Virus record (IMG/VR): IMGVR_UViG_2548876959_000009
Length of the DNA: 16,706 nucleotides
Strand: one strand, 5' to 3'
From: a virus
Taxonomy: Duplodnaviria > Heunggongvirae > Uroviricota > Caudoviricetes
The notes beneath the pieces are model-generated. The model did no database searches. It was not told the origin of the DNA and saw only the letters and a list, made by a program, of their open reading frames with translations. The position numbers and the translations under genes were made by a program. Positions 9,936 to 16,706 of the stretch are shown here, piece by piece; position 1 is the stretch's first letter; each line of letters opens with the position of its first letter.

Positions 9936-10736
9936 TTAACCGCGCTTCGCCTTCTGCGACGCGGTGGTTTTTCGTGTTGCAGGCTTCTGCGTTGTCTTTT
10001 TACTTTTGCTGCTTTCGTCCTGCGTCTGCTGTGCGCTGGCGTCTTCTGGTGCGGCTGCGGAATCGGCTTTTTTCAGGGCGCGGGAAAGGGTTGCAATCTC
10101 GCGTTTCACACCTGCGTTCGGGTTCAGGTGCATCGCTTCGCGCAGCAGCTTCAGTGATGAGGCCATGTTGTCTGCATCGGTCAGGCCACGACGGGCAAAG
10201 GCACACGCCTTGCATAATTTGGCGCGCACTTCGTCCGGCATGTCCTGGTTGGCGACAATTTCCCAAAGTGTGTCCAGTGGTTCGATAAAGGCGGATAAAT
10301 CCGCGTCGGCATCCGTCCCGGCCTGCGTCAGTACCGGGTTGCAGATTTCTTCGGTCAGTACCGTGGCAGCAGTACGGCCAAAGTTATCCGGCATGATGAG
10401 GTTGTGACGGACCACATATGCACCAATACGCAGCGCCAGCGGAAGATCGCCGCAGTCAATCGCCCACACCATCAGCGTGGCAATTACTTCGTCCTGTTGC
10501 CCGCCGTCAGTCTCCAGCGTTCCCTCAATCCAGCCGGAAAAGTCCGGCAACAACTCTTTTTTGATGGCGGCTTTCGCGCTTCTGGCCTGTACGCCCTTTA
10601 GCCTGGCCTGTGCCAGACGCAGACGATACAGCACCTCTTCATGCGCGGTACGCGCGGCGTGGTCCACACCTTCATTCGCCCGGCCTGCGCGCTGTGCCAT
10701 CACGTTCTGCCAGTGTTGTTGTGCAGGAGTAATCAT
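9936..10736 (-). CDS. M: Terminase small (endonuclease) subunit M (P2 gpM-like)
   Basis: 266 aa: MITPAQQHW...KKELLP...DMPDEVRAKL...AGVKREI, with a basic C-terminal tail, similar to P2 gpM. RBS GGAGAG upstream. Confidence 0.85.
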   Translation of the reverse strand: MITPAQQHWQNVMAQRAGRANEGVDHAARTAHEEVLYRLRLAQARLKGVQARSAKAAIKKELLPDFSGWIEGTLETDGGQQDEVIATLMVWAIDCGDLPLALRIGAYVVRHNLIMPDNFGRTAATVLTEEICNPVLTQAGTDADADLSAFIEPLDTLWEIVANQDMPDEVRAKLCKACAFARRGLTDADNMASSLKLLREAMHLNPNAGVKREIATLSRALKKADSAAAPEDASAQQTQDESSKSKKTTQKPATRKTTASQKAKRG

Positions 10737-12848: not shown

Positions 12849-14600
12849 ATGATTCAGGACGCTTTTGTGCGCCAGCGTGCGCGGCAACTTTACTGGCAGG
12901 GTTATCCGCCCGCAGAAATATCACGTCTGATGGGAATAAACCCGAACACGATTTATGCGTGGAAAAAACGCGACCAGTGGGATGAAACGCCACCCGTGCA
13001 GCGTGTCACGCAGTCCATCGATGCGCGCCTCATCCAGCTTACTGAAAAACAGAATAAAACAGGCGGTGACTTTAAGGAAATAGACCTGCTGACCCGGCAG
13101 CTTAAAAAAATGCATGATGGCCAGCCGGATGCGACGGCCACAGGAAAGAAAGGTCGGGCGAAAAAACTCAAAAATCATTTCACGCCGGAACAGATTGCCG
13201 CACTGCGGGAAAAAATCATCAGCAGGCTGGAGTGGCATCAGCGGGGCTGGTTTGACTCCCTGACCCTTTGCAGGGAAGCCGGGATACGTAACAGGATGAT
13301 CCTGAAATCCCGACAGATTGGCGCGACCTGGTATTTTGCACAGGAAGCACTGCTGATGGCGCTGCGTGACGATGTGGCGCAACCTTACCAGCGTAACCAG
13401 ATTTTTTTGTCTGCGTCGCGTCGTCAGGCGTTCCAGTTTAAAAGCATTATTCAGAAGGCCGCGGCTGAAGTTGATGTGGAGCTGAAAGGGGGCGATAAAA
13501 TCATCCTCTCCAACGGCGCAGAGCTGCATTTTCTCGGCACTTCTGCTGCGTCGGCGCAGTCCTATACGGGCAATTTTTATTTTGATGAATTTTTCTGGGT
13601 CAGTCGCTTTGCTGAACTGCGCAAGGTGGCTGGCGCTATGGCAACCCTCAGCGGATTGCGGCGCACCTACTTCTCCACGCCATCCACCGAAACGCACGAA
13701 GCATACGCCTACTGGAACGGCGACCGCTGGAACGAGAAAAAGGCCACGCATAAACGCCAGCGTTTTTCTGTGGACTGGAAAACGCTGCATAACGGGCTTA
13801 TCTGCCCTGACCGGACGTGGCGGCAAATTGTCACGCTGGAAGATGTGGTTAATCACGGCTGGAAACACACCGATATCGACGAAATTCGTGATGAAAACAC
13901 CGAAGACGAGTTCCTCAATCTCTATATGTGTGAGTTTGTCCGCGAAGGGGAATCGGCATTTAACCTGAATATCCTGATTGGCTGCGGTGTTGACGGATAC
14001 GACGACTGGAAAGACTGGAAACCTTTTGCTCCCCGCCCGATGGGGAATCGTCCGGTATGGATTGGGTATGACGCAAACGGCAGCAGTGGCAACGGCGACA
14101 GCGGCGCTGTGTCCGTGGTGGTTCCTCCGGCTGTTCCTGGTGGCCGTTTTCGAACGGTGGAGACGCGACGCGTTCAGGGGCTGGAGTTTGAAGAACAGGC
14201 CAGAGTCATTGAAGATTTCACGTATCGCTACAACGTGGAACACATCGGCATTGATGTGACGGGCGGGAACGGGGAGGCTGTTTATCAGATAGTGAAACGG
14301 TTTTTCCCTGCCGCTATTCCGTACACCTTCACGCTGTCATCAAAACGGTCGCTTGTACTGAAAATGCTGCAAATAATGCGTGCCGGGCGGTGGGAATACG
14401 ATCGCGCCGAACGCGAGCTGGTCGCGGCCTTTAACGCCGTGCGTAAGGTGAAAACACCGGGCGGCTTTATCACTTACGAAACGGACCGCGCGAGGGGGAG
14501 CAGCCACGGCGACCTTGCGTGGGCAACCATGCTTGCTGTCATTAACGAACCAATTGGCGGCGAAGGAGAAAACGAGCGTTTCACAGTTATGGAGTTCTGA
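12849..14600 (+). CDS. P: Terminase large (ATPase) subunit P (P2 gpP-like)
   Basis: 583 aa. The N-terminus RQRARQLYWQGYPPAEISRLMGINPNTIYAWK and the overall architecture match P2 gpP. Its stop overlaps the Q start. Confidence 0.9.
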   Translation: MIQDAFVRQRARQLYWQGYPPAEISRLMGINPNTIYAWKKRDQWDETPPVQRVTQSIDARLIQLTEKQNKTGGDFKEIDLLTRQLKKMHDGQPDATATGKKGRAKKLKNHFTPEQIAALREKIISRLEWHQRGWFDSLTLCREAGIRNRMILKSRQIGATWYFAQEALLMALRDDVAQPYQRNQIFLSASRRQAFQFKSIIQKAAAEVDVELKGGDKIILSNGAELHFLGTSAASAQSYTGNFYFDEFFWVSRFAELRKVAGAMATLSGLRRTYFSTPSTETHEAYAYWNGDRWNEKKATHKRQRFSVDWKTLHNGLICPDRTWRQIVTLEDVVNHGWKHTDIDEIRDENTEDEFLNLYMCEFVREGESAFNLNILIGCGVDGYDDWKDWKPFAPRPMGNRPVWIGYDANGSSGNGDSGAVSVVVPPAVPGGRFRTVETRRVQGLEFEEQARVIEDFTYRYNVEHIGIDVTGGNGEAVYQIVKRFFPAAIPYTFTLSSKRSLVLKMLQIMRAGRWEYDRAERELVAAFNAVRKVKTPGGFITYETDRARGSSHGDLAWATMLAVINEPIGGEGENERFTVMEF

Positions 14601-15646
14601 TGAGCAGAAAAAATAAAAAAGTGCGCATGAGTTCACGCATTGATCTCGCTGATGCGCTCAGGAAAGAATCGTCGCTCAGTGCATTCACTTTTGATGGTCC
14701 TTATCGCCTGACCGGGCATGATTTGCTGGACAATATGTACTGTGCTGATAACGGGCGGTGGTATGAAACCCCGGTGGACTGGTACGGTCTGGCAAGAGCC
14801 GCCCGGCAAACGTCCTGGCATCAGTCTGCGCTTTACTTTAAGCGCAACGTATTGCTCGGGTGCTACATCCCGCACCCGCTGCTTTCCCGGCAGGATTTCT
14901 CGGCGCTGGCGCTGGACTGGTTTGTGTTCGGTAACGCATTCCTTGAGCTTCGAAGCAATATGTTCGGCGAACCGCTTAAATTACGGCACGCCCTGGCGAA
15001 ATACATGCGACGCGGAAGCGATCTTGAATCATGGTGGTATGTGCAGGATGGCAAGGATGCGTTTCAGTTTCGCCCTGGCAAAGTGTGCCACCTGATGAAT
15101 CCGGACATTAACCAGGAAATTTACGGCATGCCGGAATATCTTGGCGCATTACTCTCGGCCAGCCTGTCTCATTCGGCGGACATGTTCAGAAAACTGTATT
15201 ACGACAATGGATCCCACGCCGGGTGCATCATCTACATCGGTGCAGCGCAGGTAAACCGCGAAAGCATGGACTCCCTGAAAGAAACGTTACAGGGTGCGCG
15301 TGGTGGTGGCGCGTTTAAAAACGTGCTCATCCATGCGCCCAACGGGGGCAAAGAGGGGGTGCAAATTTTGCCGTTCCAGCAGATCACCGCAAAGGATGAG
15401 TTCATGAATGTTAAGGCGGCATCCCGTGATGATGTGCTGGCTGCGCACCGCGTTCCGCCGCAACTGATGGGGGCGATGCCGGGCGAAAAAAGTGCGTTTG
15501 GTGATGTGGAGAAGGCCGCGCGGGTTTACGCAATTAACGAGCTGATGCCCGTCATGGAGGCCATGAAGCACATCAATGACTGGCTTGGCGAAGAGGTGAT
15601 CCGCTTTAACCCTTACGCACTGTTAGACACCCAACCCACATCCTGA
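14600..15646 (+). CDS. Q: Portal protein Q (P2 gpQ-like)
   Basis: 348 aa at the P2 gpQ position immediately downstream of P, with the same length class. Confidence 0.9.
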   Translation: MSRKNKKVRMSSRIDLADALRKESSLSAFTFDGPYRLTGHDLLDNMYCADNGRWYETPVDWYGLARAARQTSWHQSALYFKRNVLLGCYIPHPLLSRQDFSALALDWFVFGNAFLELRSNMFGEPLKLRHALAKYMRRGSDLESWWYVQDGKDAFQFRPGKVCHLMNPDINQEIYGMPEYLGALLSASLSHSADMFRKLYYDNGSHAGCIIYIGAAQVNRESMDSLKETLQGARGGGAFKNVLIHAPNGGKEGVQILPFQQITAKDEFMNVKAASRDDVLAAHRVPPQLMGAMPGEKSAFGDVEKAARVYAINELMPVMEAMKHINDWLGEEVIRFNPYALLDTQPTS

Positions 15647-15939
15647 CGCGCTTCGCTTGTCTGCTGCTTCGCTGGGGCATAAAAAATTTATGCCCCGACT
15701 CTCCAGCTCCTGTATCAATCAGATAATTTCACGACGCTTTCCTGCTTATTGCCATCATCGACAGTCAGACTCTTACGCAATCCCACCGCGTTGATTGCAT
15801 GTTCTCGCCGTCTCAGTGCGATTTTGACGGCCTTACCTTTCACCTCATCAAATCAAAAGCCCTCACGTCTTTTTCACGCTCAGCGTGAGAAATACAGCCA
15901 TTCTGTTGTGTCGCTGCGACATCGTTCAGGGGATGCTAT

Positions 15940-15980
15940 TTACCCCCTGAAACGCGGGCTGTTCCCCCGTCACCTGCGCG
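15940..15980. other. Candidate cos (cohesive-end) site of the prophage
   Basis: The reverse complement of GGGCTGTTCCCCCGTCACC resembles the G-rich 19-nt cohesive end of P2/186 as I recall it (GGCGAGGCGGGGAAAGCAC type). The location downstream of the portal gene is as in P2. This is a memory-based comparison, not an alignment. Confidence 0.2.
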
Positions 15981-16000
15981 CAGAAAAAGCGCGTTTTTTT
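15976..16000 (+). terminator. Intrinsic terminator for the P-Q late operon
   Basis: GC stem CGCGC (15977-15981) pairs with GCGCG (15989-15993), loop AGAAAAA, followed by seven T at 15994-16000. Confidence 0.6.
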
Positions 16001-16070
16001 GTGCACGCACGGATCCTTGACGGATCCAGCCGCCATACGGGCCGGAAGGGTAAAAAGTCGTTCAAAAAAA

Positions 16071-16100
16071 TTGTGCAAATTTGTGCACTTTTGTGCAAAC
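16071..16100 (+). repeat. Three phased 10-bp direct repeats: TTGTGCAAAT, TTGTGCACTT, TTGTGCAAAC
   Basis: Read directly from the sequence; helical-period spacing next to the terminator hairpin, in the non-coding post-portal region. Confidence 0.5.
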
Positions 16101-16102
16101 AA

Positions 16103-16123
16103 AAAGCGCCCCTGAGGCGCTTT
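16103..16123 (-). terminator. Hairpin terminator (possibly bidirectional) ending the convergent minus-strand small operon
   Basis: AAAGCGCC-CCTGA-GGCGCTTT: an 8-bp stem with 5-nt loop, with a T-rich run after it on the minus-strand transcript and TTTAGTGTTTT on the plus strand. Lies 35 nt downstream of the 87-aa ORF stop. Confidence 0.5.
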
Positions 16124-16157
16124 AGTGTTTTATAGGTTGTGTATATTTGCTGGGTCC

Positions 16158-16421
16158 TTATCCTGCTGTGCTTTCAACTGATGAGGGGAACAAAATCTTT
16201 TCATCAAACCCTGCATTCATATCATGGACAGCAACACACCAATCCATTGACGAACGATTATCAAGAGCCTCCATGATTTCATCCATGCGGCGTAGGTCAT
16301 ACAGGTAAATGCTTTTATCGCCAATGGTGTAAAAACCAATTTTTTTCGGTGATGGACAGCGATCAAGAACGTCCTGTAATTCGCTCAACCATGCTTGTTC
16401 TTTTTTTGTCAAAGTTGCCAT
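16158..16421 (-). CDS. Hypothetical small protein (87 aa), last gene of a convergent operon in the post-portal variable region
   Basis: Strong RBS AAAGGAGAG 4 nt before ATG (MATLTKKEQAWLSEL...). Acidic, no predicted transmembrane segment, no recognisable motif. The ORF track's longer version starts at an upstream TTG (16442). Confidence 0.5.
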   Translation of the reverse strand: MATLTKKEQAWLSELQDVLDRCPSPKKIGFYTIGDKSIYLYDLRRMDEIMEALDNRSSMDWCVAVHDMNAGFDEKILFPSSVESTAG

Positions 16422-16422
16422 A

Positions 16423-16599
16423 TCACTCTCCTTTGATGCCAATGTCTACAGCTTGGCAAGCCTCTTTGGTCACCCAGTCAATAGCGTCTTTCCATACTCC
16501 AGTTTCGACTGGCGGATTCTCACGCTTTACCTGTTCATAGAAACGCACCGCTCTAACCAGTCCATCTGGTACTGCTGGCGCTGGCGGCTCTCGATACAT
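16423..16599 (-). CDS. Hypothetical small ORF (58 aa) translationally coupled to the downstream 87-aa ORF
   Basis: ATG at 16599; stop TGA sits 1 nt before the next ATG (TGAtATG). Weak RBS, below the ORF-track size cut-off, no recognisable motif; its coding status is uncertain. Confidence 0.3.
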   Translation of the reverse strand: MYREPPAPAVPDGLVRAVRFYEQVKRENPPVETGVWKDAIDWVTKEACQAVDIGIKGE

Positions 16600-16706
16600 A
16601 GGGATAACACGTCGCAGGTCCGCGTATTTATCTGGCGGACACTGATATATCGTAAGCGTGCAGCAAGAACCGTATTGACGGGGATGTGTTATTCAGTCGG
16701 CAGTGC

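What the first reader, a model, noticed from the sequence alone, without database searches (positions are those of the whole stretch)
16071..16123. Three helically phased TTGTGCA repeats abutting a hairpin
Three 10-bp direct repeats (TTGTGCAAAT, TTGTGCACTT, TTGTGCAAAC) lie immediately next to an 8-bp-stem hairpin, with GTGCAC motifs also just upstream (16001-16010). Same-face phased repeats are typical of protein-binding arrays such as terminase small-subunit sites near cos, iterons or operators. Their position between two convergent terminators in the cos-proximal gap favours a packaging or DNA-architecture role over promoter control.
Basis: seen in the sequence. Interest (0 to 1): 0.45.

Follow-up and report, generated by a model that had tools for sequence, protein, structure and literature searches.

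The report
Phased repeats ending a prophage cos site
The three 10-bp-spaced TTGTGCA repeats are the outer edge of the DNA-packaging (cos) signal of a P2-family prophage, and the same repeat layout sits at the same distance from the cutting site in P2, its satellite P4 and relatives from four bacterial orders, so it is very probably a docking site for the packaging enzyme.

Summary
TTGTGCAAAT/TTGTGCACTT/TTGTGCAAAC lie at 16071-16100, 2 bp from a 8-9-bp-stem hairpin (16103-16123); the pattern occurred in 0 of 200 shuffles.

The window is the P88-like (P2-family) prophage of E. coli 55989. The repeats end a conserved module of about 145 bp. It starts at a 19-mer (about 15956-15976) homologous to the P2 cohesive-end sequence.

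All 78 close E. coli relatives keep the three repeats. Homology stops right after the third one, where 20 different cargo junctions begin.

TGC(A/G) motifs sit about +26 and +98/+108(/+118) bp from the cos 19-mer in P2, P4, 186, PSP3, and in Ralstonia, Pseudomonas and Stenotrophomonas phages. This holds even in 47 P2-type variants with unrelated spacers.

ParMR centromere, promoter and known-RNA readings are rejected. The hairpin is a cargo-specific terminator.

Best explanation: a distal, cosB-like terminase docking array. The reader of the sites is inferred and more likely the HTH at the N-terminus of the large subunit gpP than gpM, which is predicted TPR-like.

Binding, the exact nick sites and packaging direction are untested. 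Ordinary in kind, but apparently undescribed beyond the published 55-bp core.

The parts
15956..15976 (.). Candidate cosN: a 19-mer homologous to the P2-family cohesive-end sequence. It is GGGCTGTTCCCCCGTCACC at 15956-15974, or 15958-15976 if the alignment is held ungapped to the TGCA sites. The nick positions are uncertain by about 2 nt.
   Evidence: It matches 13 of 19 positions of the reverse complement of the P2 cos sequence, GTGCTTTCCCCGCCTCGCC. Intermediate lineages carry CTTGCTCCCCCGCCTCGCC in the same place. It is nearly invariant in 24 unique sequences from different genera. It has not been mapped experimentally.
15976..16000 (+). Terminator-like hairpin GCGCGC-agaaaaa-GCGCG plus a T7 run, directly after cosN. 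It corresponds to CGCCCGCTTCACGGGGCGGTTTT in the P2/P4 55-bp core.
   Evidence: The T-run is conserved in all lineages. The stem pairing is not conserved.
16001..16010 (.). Proximal GTGCAC(GCAC) element. It is equivalent to AATGCA at the edge of the P2/P4 55-bp core.
   Evidence: TGCA starts at +26/+28 after the cos 19-mer in all reference phages, in 42 of 47 P2-type spacer clusters and in nearly all GTDB loci.
16010..16055 (.). Central G+C-rich spacer. It holds a CGGATCC-N4-CGGATCC direct repeat (16010-16016 and 16021-16027, two Dam GATC sites) and CCAGCCGCCATACGGGCCGGAAGGGTA.
   Evidence: It is moderately conserved. Other lineages carry a G+C-rich dyad at this place.
16064..16070 (.). A7 tract directly before the repeats.
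   Evidence: It is conserved as TCAAAAAAATTGTGCA in both cos types.
16071..16100 (+). Three direct TTGTGCA repeats at 10-bp spacing (R1 16071-16080, R2 16081-16090, R3 16091-16100). Conservation ends at 16097. Proposed distal terminase docking array.
16103..16123 (-). Intrinsic terminator of the convergent cargo operon. It is specific to this cargo and is not part of the conserved cos module.
   Evidence: 9 pairs, then TTGTTTGCAC. The last cargo gene ends at 16158. Only loci with the same cargo share this hairpin; other cargo variants have their own hairpins at this place. Phage 186 has the annotated terminator t95b at the equivalent place.
12849..14600 (+). gpP, the terminase large subunit. 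Its N-terminal HTH (residues 6-63, nt 12864-13037) is the candidate reader of the TGCA sites.
   Evidence: PF06056, PF03237, PF17289, HTH_23; the N-terminal 100 aa hit the N-termini of PHROG 'terminase small subunit' and 'DNA binding protein' families; this domain is highly conserved across lineages. predicts three short helices followed by two long ones.
9936..10736 (-). gpM, the terminase small subunit (PF05944). It is predicted to be an all-alpha TPR-like repeat with a disordered basic C-terminal tail.
14600..15646 (+). gpQ portal gene. The cos module begins about 310 bp after its stop codon.

Best explanation
The three repeats are the distal element of the cos packaging signal of this P88-like, P2-family prophage. 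The signal has five parts: a 19-bp cosN (about 15956-15976); a T-run with a proximal GTGCAC (15994-16006); a spacer of about 65 bp; an A-tract (16064-16070); and three TGCA elements on one DNA face (16071-16097). Together they hold terminase at a fixed distance, about 100-125 bp, from the nick sites. The complex can then be assembled on the circular phage genome, positioned to cut cosN, and hand one end to the prohead. In function this resembles lambda cosB.

What is shown: the element exists, it is rigidly placed relative to cosN, it is conserved independently of flanking sequence and cargo, and it is shared by the satellite P4, which uses the P2 terminase.

What is inferred: terminase is the binder; the sequence reader is the small-terminase-like HTH at the N-terminus of gpP, with TPR-like gpM as oligomerising partner; and phased, flexible TG/CA steps plus A/T-tracts help wrap or bend the DNA.

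The adjacent hairpin is a separate, cargo-specific terminator. It keeps early and cargo transcription out of cos.
For: (1) Identity of the locus. The window is 100% identical to E. coli 55989, and the same region occurs in 1142 of 5426 complete E. coli genomes. The layout is gpM, N, O, P, Q, then the gap, then cargo, ParR, ParM and gpA.

(2) Homology of cosN. 15956-15974 matches the P2 cos sequence at 13 of 19 positions. Lineages with ...CCCCCGCCTCGCC bridge the two forms.

(3) Conservation among genera. In 24 (window-type cos) plus 15 (P2-type cos) unique sequences from GTDB species genomes (portal 54-78% identical; two loci at 99%), conservation runs from about -24 to +124 and ends right after the third TGCA.

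(4) Conservation among close relatives. 78 of 78 E. coli P88-type viral contigs keep all three repeats. 20 distinct downstream sequences start immediately after them.

(5) Fixed register. TGC(A/G) starts at 26/98/108/118-121 in P2, P4, 186 and PSP3. It starts at 26/97/107 in Ralstonia RSA1 and Pseudomonas phiCTX, and at 26/99/109 in Stenotrophomonas Smp131. In the window it starts at 28/100/110/120, which becomes 26/98/108/118 with the ungapped 19-mer.

(6) Selection rather than shared ancestry. 64 unique P2-type cos regions fall into 47 clusters whose spacers are unrelated (mean ungapped identity 0.32). TGCA is still present at +26 in 42, at +97-99 in 37, at +107-109 in 34 and at +117-118 in 18. 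Background is 1.1 per position. Site 1 to site 2 spacing is exactly 10 bp.

(7) P4 shares the layout with P2 although the 65 bp between the core and the distal sites are unrelated.

(8) Experimental hint. P4-cos cosmids with longer flanks around the 55-bp core transduced 11,597- and 50,828-fold better (PMC9594776).

(9) Candidate readers. gpP has an N-terminal HTH resembling the N-termini of small terminases. gpM is modelled as TPR-like with a basic tail.
Against: No binding or packaging experiment exists for these repeats.

Secondary citations describe only a 55-bp core as the conserved cos region 'required for packaging' (PMC5694545; PMC3931495). That core excludes the distal repeats. The original paper (Ziermann and Calendar 1990) could not be read, so the repeats may be stimulatory rather than essential.

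The third site is weaker in P2-type phages (18 of 47). About 10 of the 47 P2-type clusters lack a TGCA at +97-99.

The linear record LR595891 (P88_4B11) starts at the equivalent of window 16052|16053, not at my cosN. Its paper does not mention determining termini, so this is weak evidence, but it is unresolved.

The direction of P2 packaging could not be checked. A role like lambda cosB at initiation cannot therefore be told apart from a role at the end packaged last.

The structural support for the gpP HTH is weak: a single-sequence model with pLDDT 76 and no Foldseek match below E = 0.6.
Confidence: 0.68

Rival explanations
1. Terminase binds the repeats, but they act at the end packaged last, like lambda cosQ, or in holding or nicking the second strand, rather than in initiation.
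For: The repeats lie on the side of cosN away from the terminase and portal genes. In lambda, cosB lies on the Nu1 side (textbook knowledge). P2 packages monomeric circles (from memory), so one cos supplies both ends.
Against: Nothing found here separates this from the best explanation. The multipartite, phased layout over about 100 bp resembles initiation sites more than the short lambda cosQ (from memory).
Confidence: 0.12
2. A host DNA-binding or architectural protein binds the repeats, not terminase. One example is a LacI-family protein such as CytR, whose half-site as I recall it is GTTGCATT/AATGCAAC.
For: The P2-type consensus cATGCAAAtTcATGCAc and P2's GAATGCAAC resemble the CytR octamer as I remember it. 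This is a lead from memory, not a test.
Against: The same layout occurs in phages of Ralstonia, Pseudomonas and Stenotrophomonas, with the motif drifting from ATGCA to CTGCR. That fits a factor encoded by the phage better than one host regulator. The fixed distance to cosN has no obvious meaning for a transcription factor. No conserved promoter or CRP context was seen.
Confidence: 0.07
3. The repeats are a transcriptional element: a backup terminator or insulator on the minus strand, or the -35 region of an outward cargo promoter as in P2 old.
For: On the minus strand GTGCAC-aaattt-GCAC plus AATTTTTTTG is scored as terminator-like. In P4, distal sites 2 and 3 form the stem of a hairpin followed by a T-run just downstream of psu. 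By my reading against the transcript starts annotated, the third P2 repeat overlaps the likely -35 of the old promoter.
Against: The stem has only 5 pairs. P2 and most P2-type variants have no T-run there. Each cargo brings its own strong terminator just outside the repeats. Cargo orientation varies, and in the window no gene is read outward from the repeats. No promoter-like site was found there. A fixed distance from cosN is not expected for any of these roles.
Confidence: 0.06
4. There is no function of its own: the repeats are conserved only because they sit at the recombination boundary of the cargo hotspot and hitch-hike with cos.
For: In P88-type phages the whole module is conserved by descent, and the cargo breakpoint lies exactly at the third repeat.
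Against: In P2-type phages the breakpoint is about 90 bp closer to cos (at about +33), and the spacer is unrelated between 47 clusters. The TGCA pair nevertheless reappears at +98/+108. It is also kept across bacterial orders.
Confidence: 0.04
5. The repeats are the parC centromere of the ParM/ParR partition cassette that lies between gpA and cos in this prophage.
For: Helically phased 10-11-bp direct repeats are typical of parC (textbook knowledge). ParM and a ParR-like gene lie 1.1-2.4 kb away.
Against: Only 2 of about 40 loci that have the repeats encode ParM or ParR within 3 kb. phiT5282H, P2, P4, 186 and others have the repeats with quite different cargo. The repeats lie downstream of two further genes, not upstream of parM.
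Confidence: 0.01

Closest known systems
P2/P4 cos site (19-nt cohesive ends plus the 55-bp core of Ziermann and Calendar 1990)
   Same: It has the same position downstream of the portal gene. The 19-mer is homologous. The same T-run plus RTGCA lies at +25/+27. P2 and P4 themselves carry the same distal phased TGCA sites at +98/+108/+118-121. The terminase gene set is the same.
   Different: The 19-mer differs at 6 of 19 positions. The repeat is GTGCA instead of ATGCA. The spacer is conserved here but hypervariable in P2-type phages. In the literature I could read, the distal repeats are not part of the published 55-bp core.
Lambda cosB (R3-I1-R2-R1 sites bound by the small terminase subunit gpNu1, with IHF bending)
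   Same: Both have several short repeated elements on one side of cosN, spread over about 25-125 bp, with a gap that could be bent. The presumed role is the same: anchoring terminase next to the nick site.
   Different: No sequence relation is apparent. The candidate reader here is an HTH fused to the large subunit, and gpM is predicted TPR-like rather than a winged-helix protein. No good IHF consensus is present; ATCAA-N5-TTG in relatives is off by one from WATCAANNNNTTR, by eye. The repeats lie on the side away from the terminase genes.
phiCTX cos region repeats (annotated 'region3 containing R4,R5,R6 repeats' and an IHF site)
   Same: phiCTX is a P2-family phage in which repeats around cos were annotated by its authors. 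CTGCR motifs lie at 26/35/81/97/107 after the cos sequence.
   Different: The motif is different (CTGCR). I could not read the paper, so I do not know whether R4-R6 are these motifs or what role was proposed for them.
Phage 186 right end: cos, then terminator t95b (Dodd and Egan 1996, cited in PMC5694545)
   Same: A terminator stops early or cargo transcription just outside the distal repeats. It bounds the region that is replaced by cargo.
   Different: In the window the terminator abuts the third repeat (a 2-bp gap), whereas in 186 it lies about 35 bp beyond.

Membership tests
P2-family cos site | A G+C-rich 19-nt cohesive-end sequence homologous to GGCGAGGCGGGGAAAGCAC, downstream of the portal gene | tested here: met
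   13 of 19 positions match at 15956-15974. Bridging forms CTTGCTCCCCCGCCTCGCC occur in 15 GTDB lineages.
P2-family cos site | The flank of the 55-bp core: about 20 bp, then a T-run, then RTGCA on the side away from Q | tested here: met
   T7 plus GTGCAC at 15994-16006. TGCA at +26/+28 in all reference phages.
P2-family cos site | Staggered nicks that give 19-nt 5' cohesive ends in virion DNA | not testable with these tools
   No data on termini. The start of record LR595891 (equivalent to window 16052|16053) is not documented as an experimental end.
P2-family cos site | Cognate P2-type terminase (gpM PF05944; gpP PF06056+PF03237+PF17289) encoded nearby | tested here: met
   gpM is 36% and gpP 44% identical to the P2 proteins.
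Lambda-type cosB | Multiple repeated protein-binding elements on one side of cosN | tested here: met
   Proximal GTGCAC plus three distal TTGTGCA, all on the side away from Q.
Lambda-type cosB | The elements are bound by the DNA-binding domain of terminase | not testable with these tools
   Only candidates were identified: the gpP N-terminal HTH and the TPR-like gpM.
Lambda-type cosB | An IHF site between the repeats | tested here: inconclusive
   By eye, CATCAAAAAAATTG in relatives and GTTCAAAAAAATTG in the window miss WATCAANNNNTTR by one spacer base. The phiCTX record annotates an IHF site, but about 290 bp from cos.
Lambda-type cosB | It lies at the chromosome end that is packaged first | not testable with these tools
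   The direction of P2 packaging was not found in the papers I could read.
parC centromere of a ParMR (type II) partition system | Iterons that occur together with parM/parR and lie next to them | tested here: not met
   ParM or ParR was found in only 2 of about 40 loci that carry the repeats. The repeats are also present in phages with other cargo.
Rho-independent terminator | A G+C-rich stem-loop followed by a T-run, downstream of a gene | tested here: met
   This is met for the hairpin 16103-16123 on the minus strand, 35 nt after the stop codon at 16158. For the repeats themselves there is only a weak 5-pair stem, which P2 does not share.
Known RNA families (Rfam) | A match that reaches the family's gathering score | tested here: not met
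   The only hit is SprD at 17.7 bits against a gathering score of 100, E = 0.35.

The most novel reading that the evidence does not exclude
Across the Peduoviridae and their P4-like satellites, cos would be a bipartite signal. Four to five TGCA elements sit at a fixed register from the nick site (+26, +32, +98, +108, +118). They would be read by small-terminase-like HTH domains fused to the large subunit gpP, possibly one per protomer of the assembling motor. A TPR-like gpM would bridge the protomers, and the roughly 70-bp spacer would be looped or wrapped. The published 55-bp core would then be only half of the signal. The distal half would travel with each cargo cassette of the defence hotspot.
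Probability: 0.2. Interest if true: 0.65.

Novelty: new member of a known kind. Interest (0 to 1): 0.45.

Why it matters
The P2/P4 cos site is used to build cosmids and transducing particles for delivering antimicrobials. Published constructs differ more than 1000-fold in efficiency depending on unexplained flanking DNA around the 55-bp core (PMC9594776). A defined distal element at a fixed distance gives a concrete, testable reason for that difference and a rule for design.

It also marks the exact inner boundary of the cos-proximal defence and cargo hotspot in P88-type prophages, which about a fifth of complete E. coli genomes carry.

Finally, it points to an unusual split of terminase functions, with the HTH on the large subunit and a TPR-like 'small subunit', in a phage family that has no solved terminase structure.

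Tried and rejected
- parC of the neighbouring ParMR cassette. Rejected: ParM or ParR is found in 2 of about 40 loci with the repeats.
- Promoter. No promoter-like site lies at the repeats, and no gene is read outward from them.
- Known RNA. Nothing in Rfam.
- The abutting hairpin as part of the element. Rejected: it is shared only by loci with the same cargo, and other cargos bring other hairpins.
- The hairpin after cosN as a conserved structure. Rejected: its 3' arm varies without compensation in P2-type variants, and there is no stem in several lineages.
- Using the ends of LR595891 to map cosN. Its paper mentions no determination of termini. Sister P2-like records start at the P2 cos site, probably by homology.
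- Contig ends in IMG/VR as a proxy for physical ends. None fall inside the module.
- Distant portal relatives from Shewanella, Pseudoalteromonas, Colwellia and Porphyrobacter. No cos anchor and no exact phased 5-mers were found, so they are uninformative.
- More P4-like cos sites. Only 3 were found and all are near-identical to P4.
- Reading Ziermann and Calendar 1990 and the Christie and Calendar review. Neither is held.
- Direction of P2 packaging. Not found in the library.
- Solved structures for gpM or the gpP N-terminus. None.
- Foldseek search with the gpP N-terminal model. The top-ranked matches are mostly HTH or other DNA-binding proteins, including Sf6 small terminase at ranks 8 and 37, but none is significant (E at least 0.6).
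- The ORF at 15749-16135 (128 aa, TTG start) that spans the module. I treat it as spurious, because the conservation pattern is non-coding and the spacer is replaced wholesale in P2-type phages.

Full report
**Observation.** The sequence is as described. TTGTGCAAAT lies at 16071-16080, TTGTGCACTT at 16081-16090 and TTGTGCAAAC at 16091-16100, so the spacing is exactly 10 bp. An A7 tract (16064-16070) precedes the repeats. The hairpin AAAGCGCC/GGCGCTTT (16103-16123) follows them. GTGCAC is at 16001-16006. The triple pattern, allowing up to 2 mismatches, occurs once in the window and in none of 200 dinucleotide-preserving shuffles. The two flanking terminator-like sites also exist: 15976-15994 plus T7 on the + strand, and 16123-16103 plus TTGTTTG on the - strand.

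**Context.** The region is 100% identical to the chromosome of E. coli 55989. It is present in 1142 of 5426 complete E. coli genomes and in P88-like phages of the genus Xuanwuvirus, family Peduoviridae. The gene order is gpM, N and O on the - strand, gpP and gpQ on the + strand (Q stops at 15646), and then the gap. After the gap come two small genes, a ParR-like gene, ParM and the replication protein gpA, all read towards the gap. In P2 the cohesive-end site lies exactly here, between Q and the old/tin cargo.

**The repeats end a conserved cos module.**
- 15956-15974 (GGGCTGTTCCCCCGTCACC) matches the reverse complement of the P2 cos 19-mer at 13 of 19 positions.
- Prophages from other genera carry CTTGCTCCCCCGCCTCGCC at the same place. 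This form shares its last 12 bases with P2 and bridges the two.
- 52 loci were recovered from GTDB species genomes with the portal protein. Among them, 24 unique window-type and 15 unique P2-type sequences were aligned without gaps. Conservation runs from about -24 to +124 relative to the 19-mer and collapses right after the third TGCA.
- Among 78 E. coli P88-type viral contigs, all keep the three repeats. R1 is TTGTGCAAAT in 62, R2 is TTGTGCACTA in 72, and R3 is TTGTGCA in 56 and TCGTGCA in 19.
- 20 distinct downstream sequences begin directly after the third repeat.
- More distant Klebsiella phages match only window 16050-16103.
- The abutting hairpin is found only in loci with the same cargo. 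Other cargos bring different hairpins to the same spot. Phage 186 has the annotated terminator t95b there. The hairpin is therefore the terminator of the convergent cargo operon, 35 nt after the stop codon at 16158, and is not part of the repeat element.

**The same layout in the reference phages.** I counted from the end of the P2-equivalent cos 19-mer to each TGC(A/G) start.

| Phage | TGC(A/G) starts |
|---|---|
| P2 | 26 / 98 / 108 / 120 |
| P4 | 26 / 32 / 98 / 108 / 121 |
| 186 and PSP3 | 26 / 32 / 98 / 108 / 117 |
| Ralstonia RSA1 | 26 / 32 / 97 / 107 |
| Pseudomonas phiCTX (motif CTGCR) | 26 / 35 / 81 / 97 / 107 |
| Stenotrophomonas Smp131 (motif CCTGCG) | 26 / 99 / 109 |
| Window and Enterobacter phiT5282H | 28 / 100 / 110 / 120 |

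- If the window 19-mer is taken without a gap as 15958-15976, the window values become 26/98/108/118.
- Across the GTDB loci, the P2-type cos lineages give 26/98/108/118 and the window-type lineages give 28/100/110/120. The two sets differ by a constant 2 nt. That offset is the 2-nt ambiguity in placing the 19-mer.
- P2 and P4 share only the cos core. The 65 bp between the core and the distal sites are unrelated, yet the sites coincide.

**Selection, not shared ancestry.** 80 P2-type loci (portal 99% identical to P2) gave 64 unique cos-flanking sequences. These fall into 47 clusters whose spacers are unrelated, with a mean ungapped identity of 0.32. TGCA nevertheless starts at +26 in 42 clusters, at +32 in 30, at +97-99 in 37, at +107-109 in 34 and at +117-118 in 18. 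The background is 1.1 per position. When the sequences are registered on site 1, site 2 is exactly 10 bp away, with A in 37 of 37, T in 33, G in 32, C in 37 and A in 35. The consensus is cATGCAAAtTcATGCAc. This parallels GTGCAAATTTGTGCAC in the window, including the AAA after site 1 and the C after site 2.

**Rivals tested.**
- A parC centromere for the nearby ParMR cassette is excluded. ParM or ParR occurs in only 2 of about 40 loci that have the repeats.
- No promoter-like site lies at the repeats, and no gene is read outward from them.
- Rfam has nothing there.
- A weak 5-pair stem plus T-run exists on the minus strand. P2 lacks it, and strong cargo terminators sit just outside it.
- A host regulator is made unlikely because the layout persists in phages of Ralstonia, Pseudomonas and Stenotrophomonas with a drifting motif. 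I noted from memory a resemblance to the CytR half-site.
- Pure hitch-hiking at the hotspot boundary is contradicted by the P2-type data. There the boundary lies at about +33, yet the sites recur at +98/+108.

**Who reads the sites (inference).**
- gpP is 44% identical to P2 gpP. It has an N-terminal PF06056/HTH_23 domain at residues 6-63. Its first 100 residues hit the N-termini of PHROG families named terminase small subunit and DNA binding protein.
- This gpP domain is 75-86% identical across lineages whose portals are about 68-78% identical.
- A single-sequence model shows three short helices and two long ones. Foldseek ranks mostly HTH or other DNA-binding proteins first, but none is significant.
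- I therefore think the gpP HTH is the more likely sequence reader, with gpM as partner. This is not shown.
- TGCA contains two flexible pyrimidine-purine steps. Phased copies next to A/T-tracts could also favour wrapping through indirect readout. This too is inference.

**Literature.**
- The papers I could read describe only a '55-bp core' conserved in P2-related phages (PMC5694545; PMC3931495; PMC9122126). By my alignment of P2 and P4, that core runs from TGCAT at +26 to GCGCGC on the Q side. It therefore includes the proximal site but not the distal ones.
- PMC9594776 reports that longer flanks around the P4 cos core raise cosmid transduction 11,597- and 50,828-fold, but gives no boundaries.
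- The phiCTX GenBank record annotates repeats R4-R6 spanning cos.
- The original cos paper and the P2 review are not held.

**Open points.**
- The exact nick sites are unknown.
- The linear record LR595891 starts at the equivalent of 16052|16053. Its paper describes no mapping of termini. Sister records start at the P2 cos site.
- The direction of packaging is unknown, and so is whether the distal sites are essential or only stimulatory.

**Verdict.** This is a real, strongly constrained element. It is worth a specialist's attention because the distal TGCA array seems to be an unreported, family-wide half of the P2/P4 cos site.

Noticed in passing
L002 7235-8513 (NC_011748, just beyond the window end); window 16158-16706 holds the two small genes before it: This P2-family prophage carries a ParM/ParR-like plasmid partition cassette between gpA and cos (RefSeq annotation). 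Among the GTDB loci only the two closest relatives share it. It may hint at a plasmid-like or carrier state, or it may simply be cargo.
   Followed up: partly
window 12864-13037 (gpP residues 6-63) and 9936-10736 (gpM): The terminase 'small subunit' gpM is predicted to be a TPR-like helical repeat with a basic tail and no HTH. A small-terminase-like HTH is instead fused to the N-terminus of the large subunit. No solved structure exists for either protein.
   Followed up: partly
window 16010-16055; P4 +47..+70 (L060); 186 +50..+70 (L141); L017, L037: A G+C-rich dyad sits in the middle of the spacer in many lineages. Examples are ACCGCGCC-gggaat-GGCGCGGT in P4, CCGCGCCAG-ca-CTGGCGCGG, and GCGCAGCCC-gtca-GGGCTTGCGC. 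The arms differ between lineages but stay complementary. Folded as single-stranded DNA, the z-scores are -3.4, -3.2 and -2.4. In the window the place is taken by GGATCC-N5-GGATCC (z = -1.05).
   Followed up: partly
window 16010-16027: CGGATCC-N4-CGGATCC is a direct repeat with two Dam GATC sites. One GATCC at about +38-42 is conserved across window-type lineages from different genera. Dam sites regulate cleavage of the P1 pac site (from memory; the paper is only cited). They have no known role in P2.
   Followed up: no
L061-L140 (P2-type) versus L144-L223 (P88-type): The inner boundary of the cos-proximal cargo hotspot differs between the two groups. In P2-type phages sequence identity is lost at about +33, right after the 55-bp core, so each cargo variant carries its own spacer and its own ATGCA sites. 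In P88-type phages it is lost at +125, right after the third repeat.
   Followed up: yes
L060 about 270-310 (P4 right end): In P4, distal TGCA sites 2 and 3 are the two arms of a hairpin followed by a T-run (GCCATGCA-N9-TGCATGGC, then TTTGCATGCGTTTT) that lies just downstream of psu and reads like its terminator. One sequence would then serve both roles.
   Followed up: no
LR595891.1 ends (L001 1906-1908, L003 6001), equivalent to window 16052|16053: The deposited linear genome of P88_4B11 starts and ends 78 bp to the right of the homology-inferred cosN, inside the spacer. The source paper gives no mapping of termini.
   Followed up: partly
L185 (IMG/VR), first repeat: One natural P88-type variant has TTATGCAAAT in place of TTGTGCAAAT, which is the P2-type ATGCA motif. 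Other variants have TGCG in place of TGCA in R2 (1 of 78) or R3 (3 of 78). The base before TGCA and the last A therefore tolerate change.
   Followed up: no
window 15749-16135 (+): A 128-aa ORF with a TTG start spans the whole cos module. Some phage records annotate hypothetical proteins here. The conservation pattern is non-coding, so the ORF is probably spurious.
   Followed up: no
L228 (phiCTX 35250-35580): Beyond the CTGCR sites, phiCTX has several AGGTAATT repeats and an annotated IHF site 170-300 bp from cos (annotated as R3). They are probably not related to packaging.
   Followed up: no
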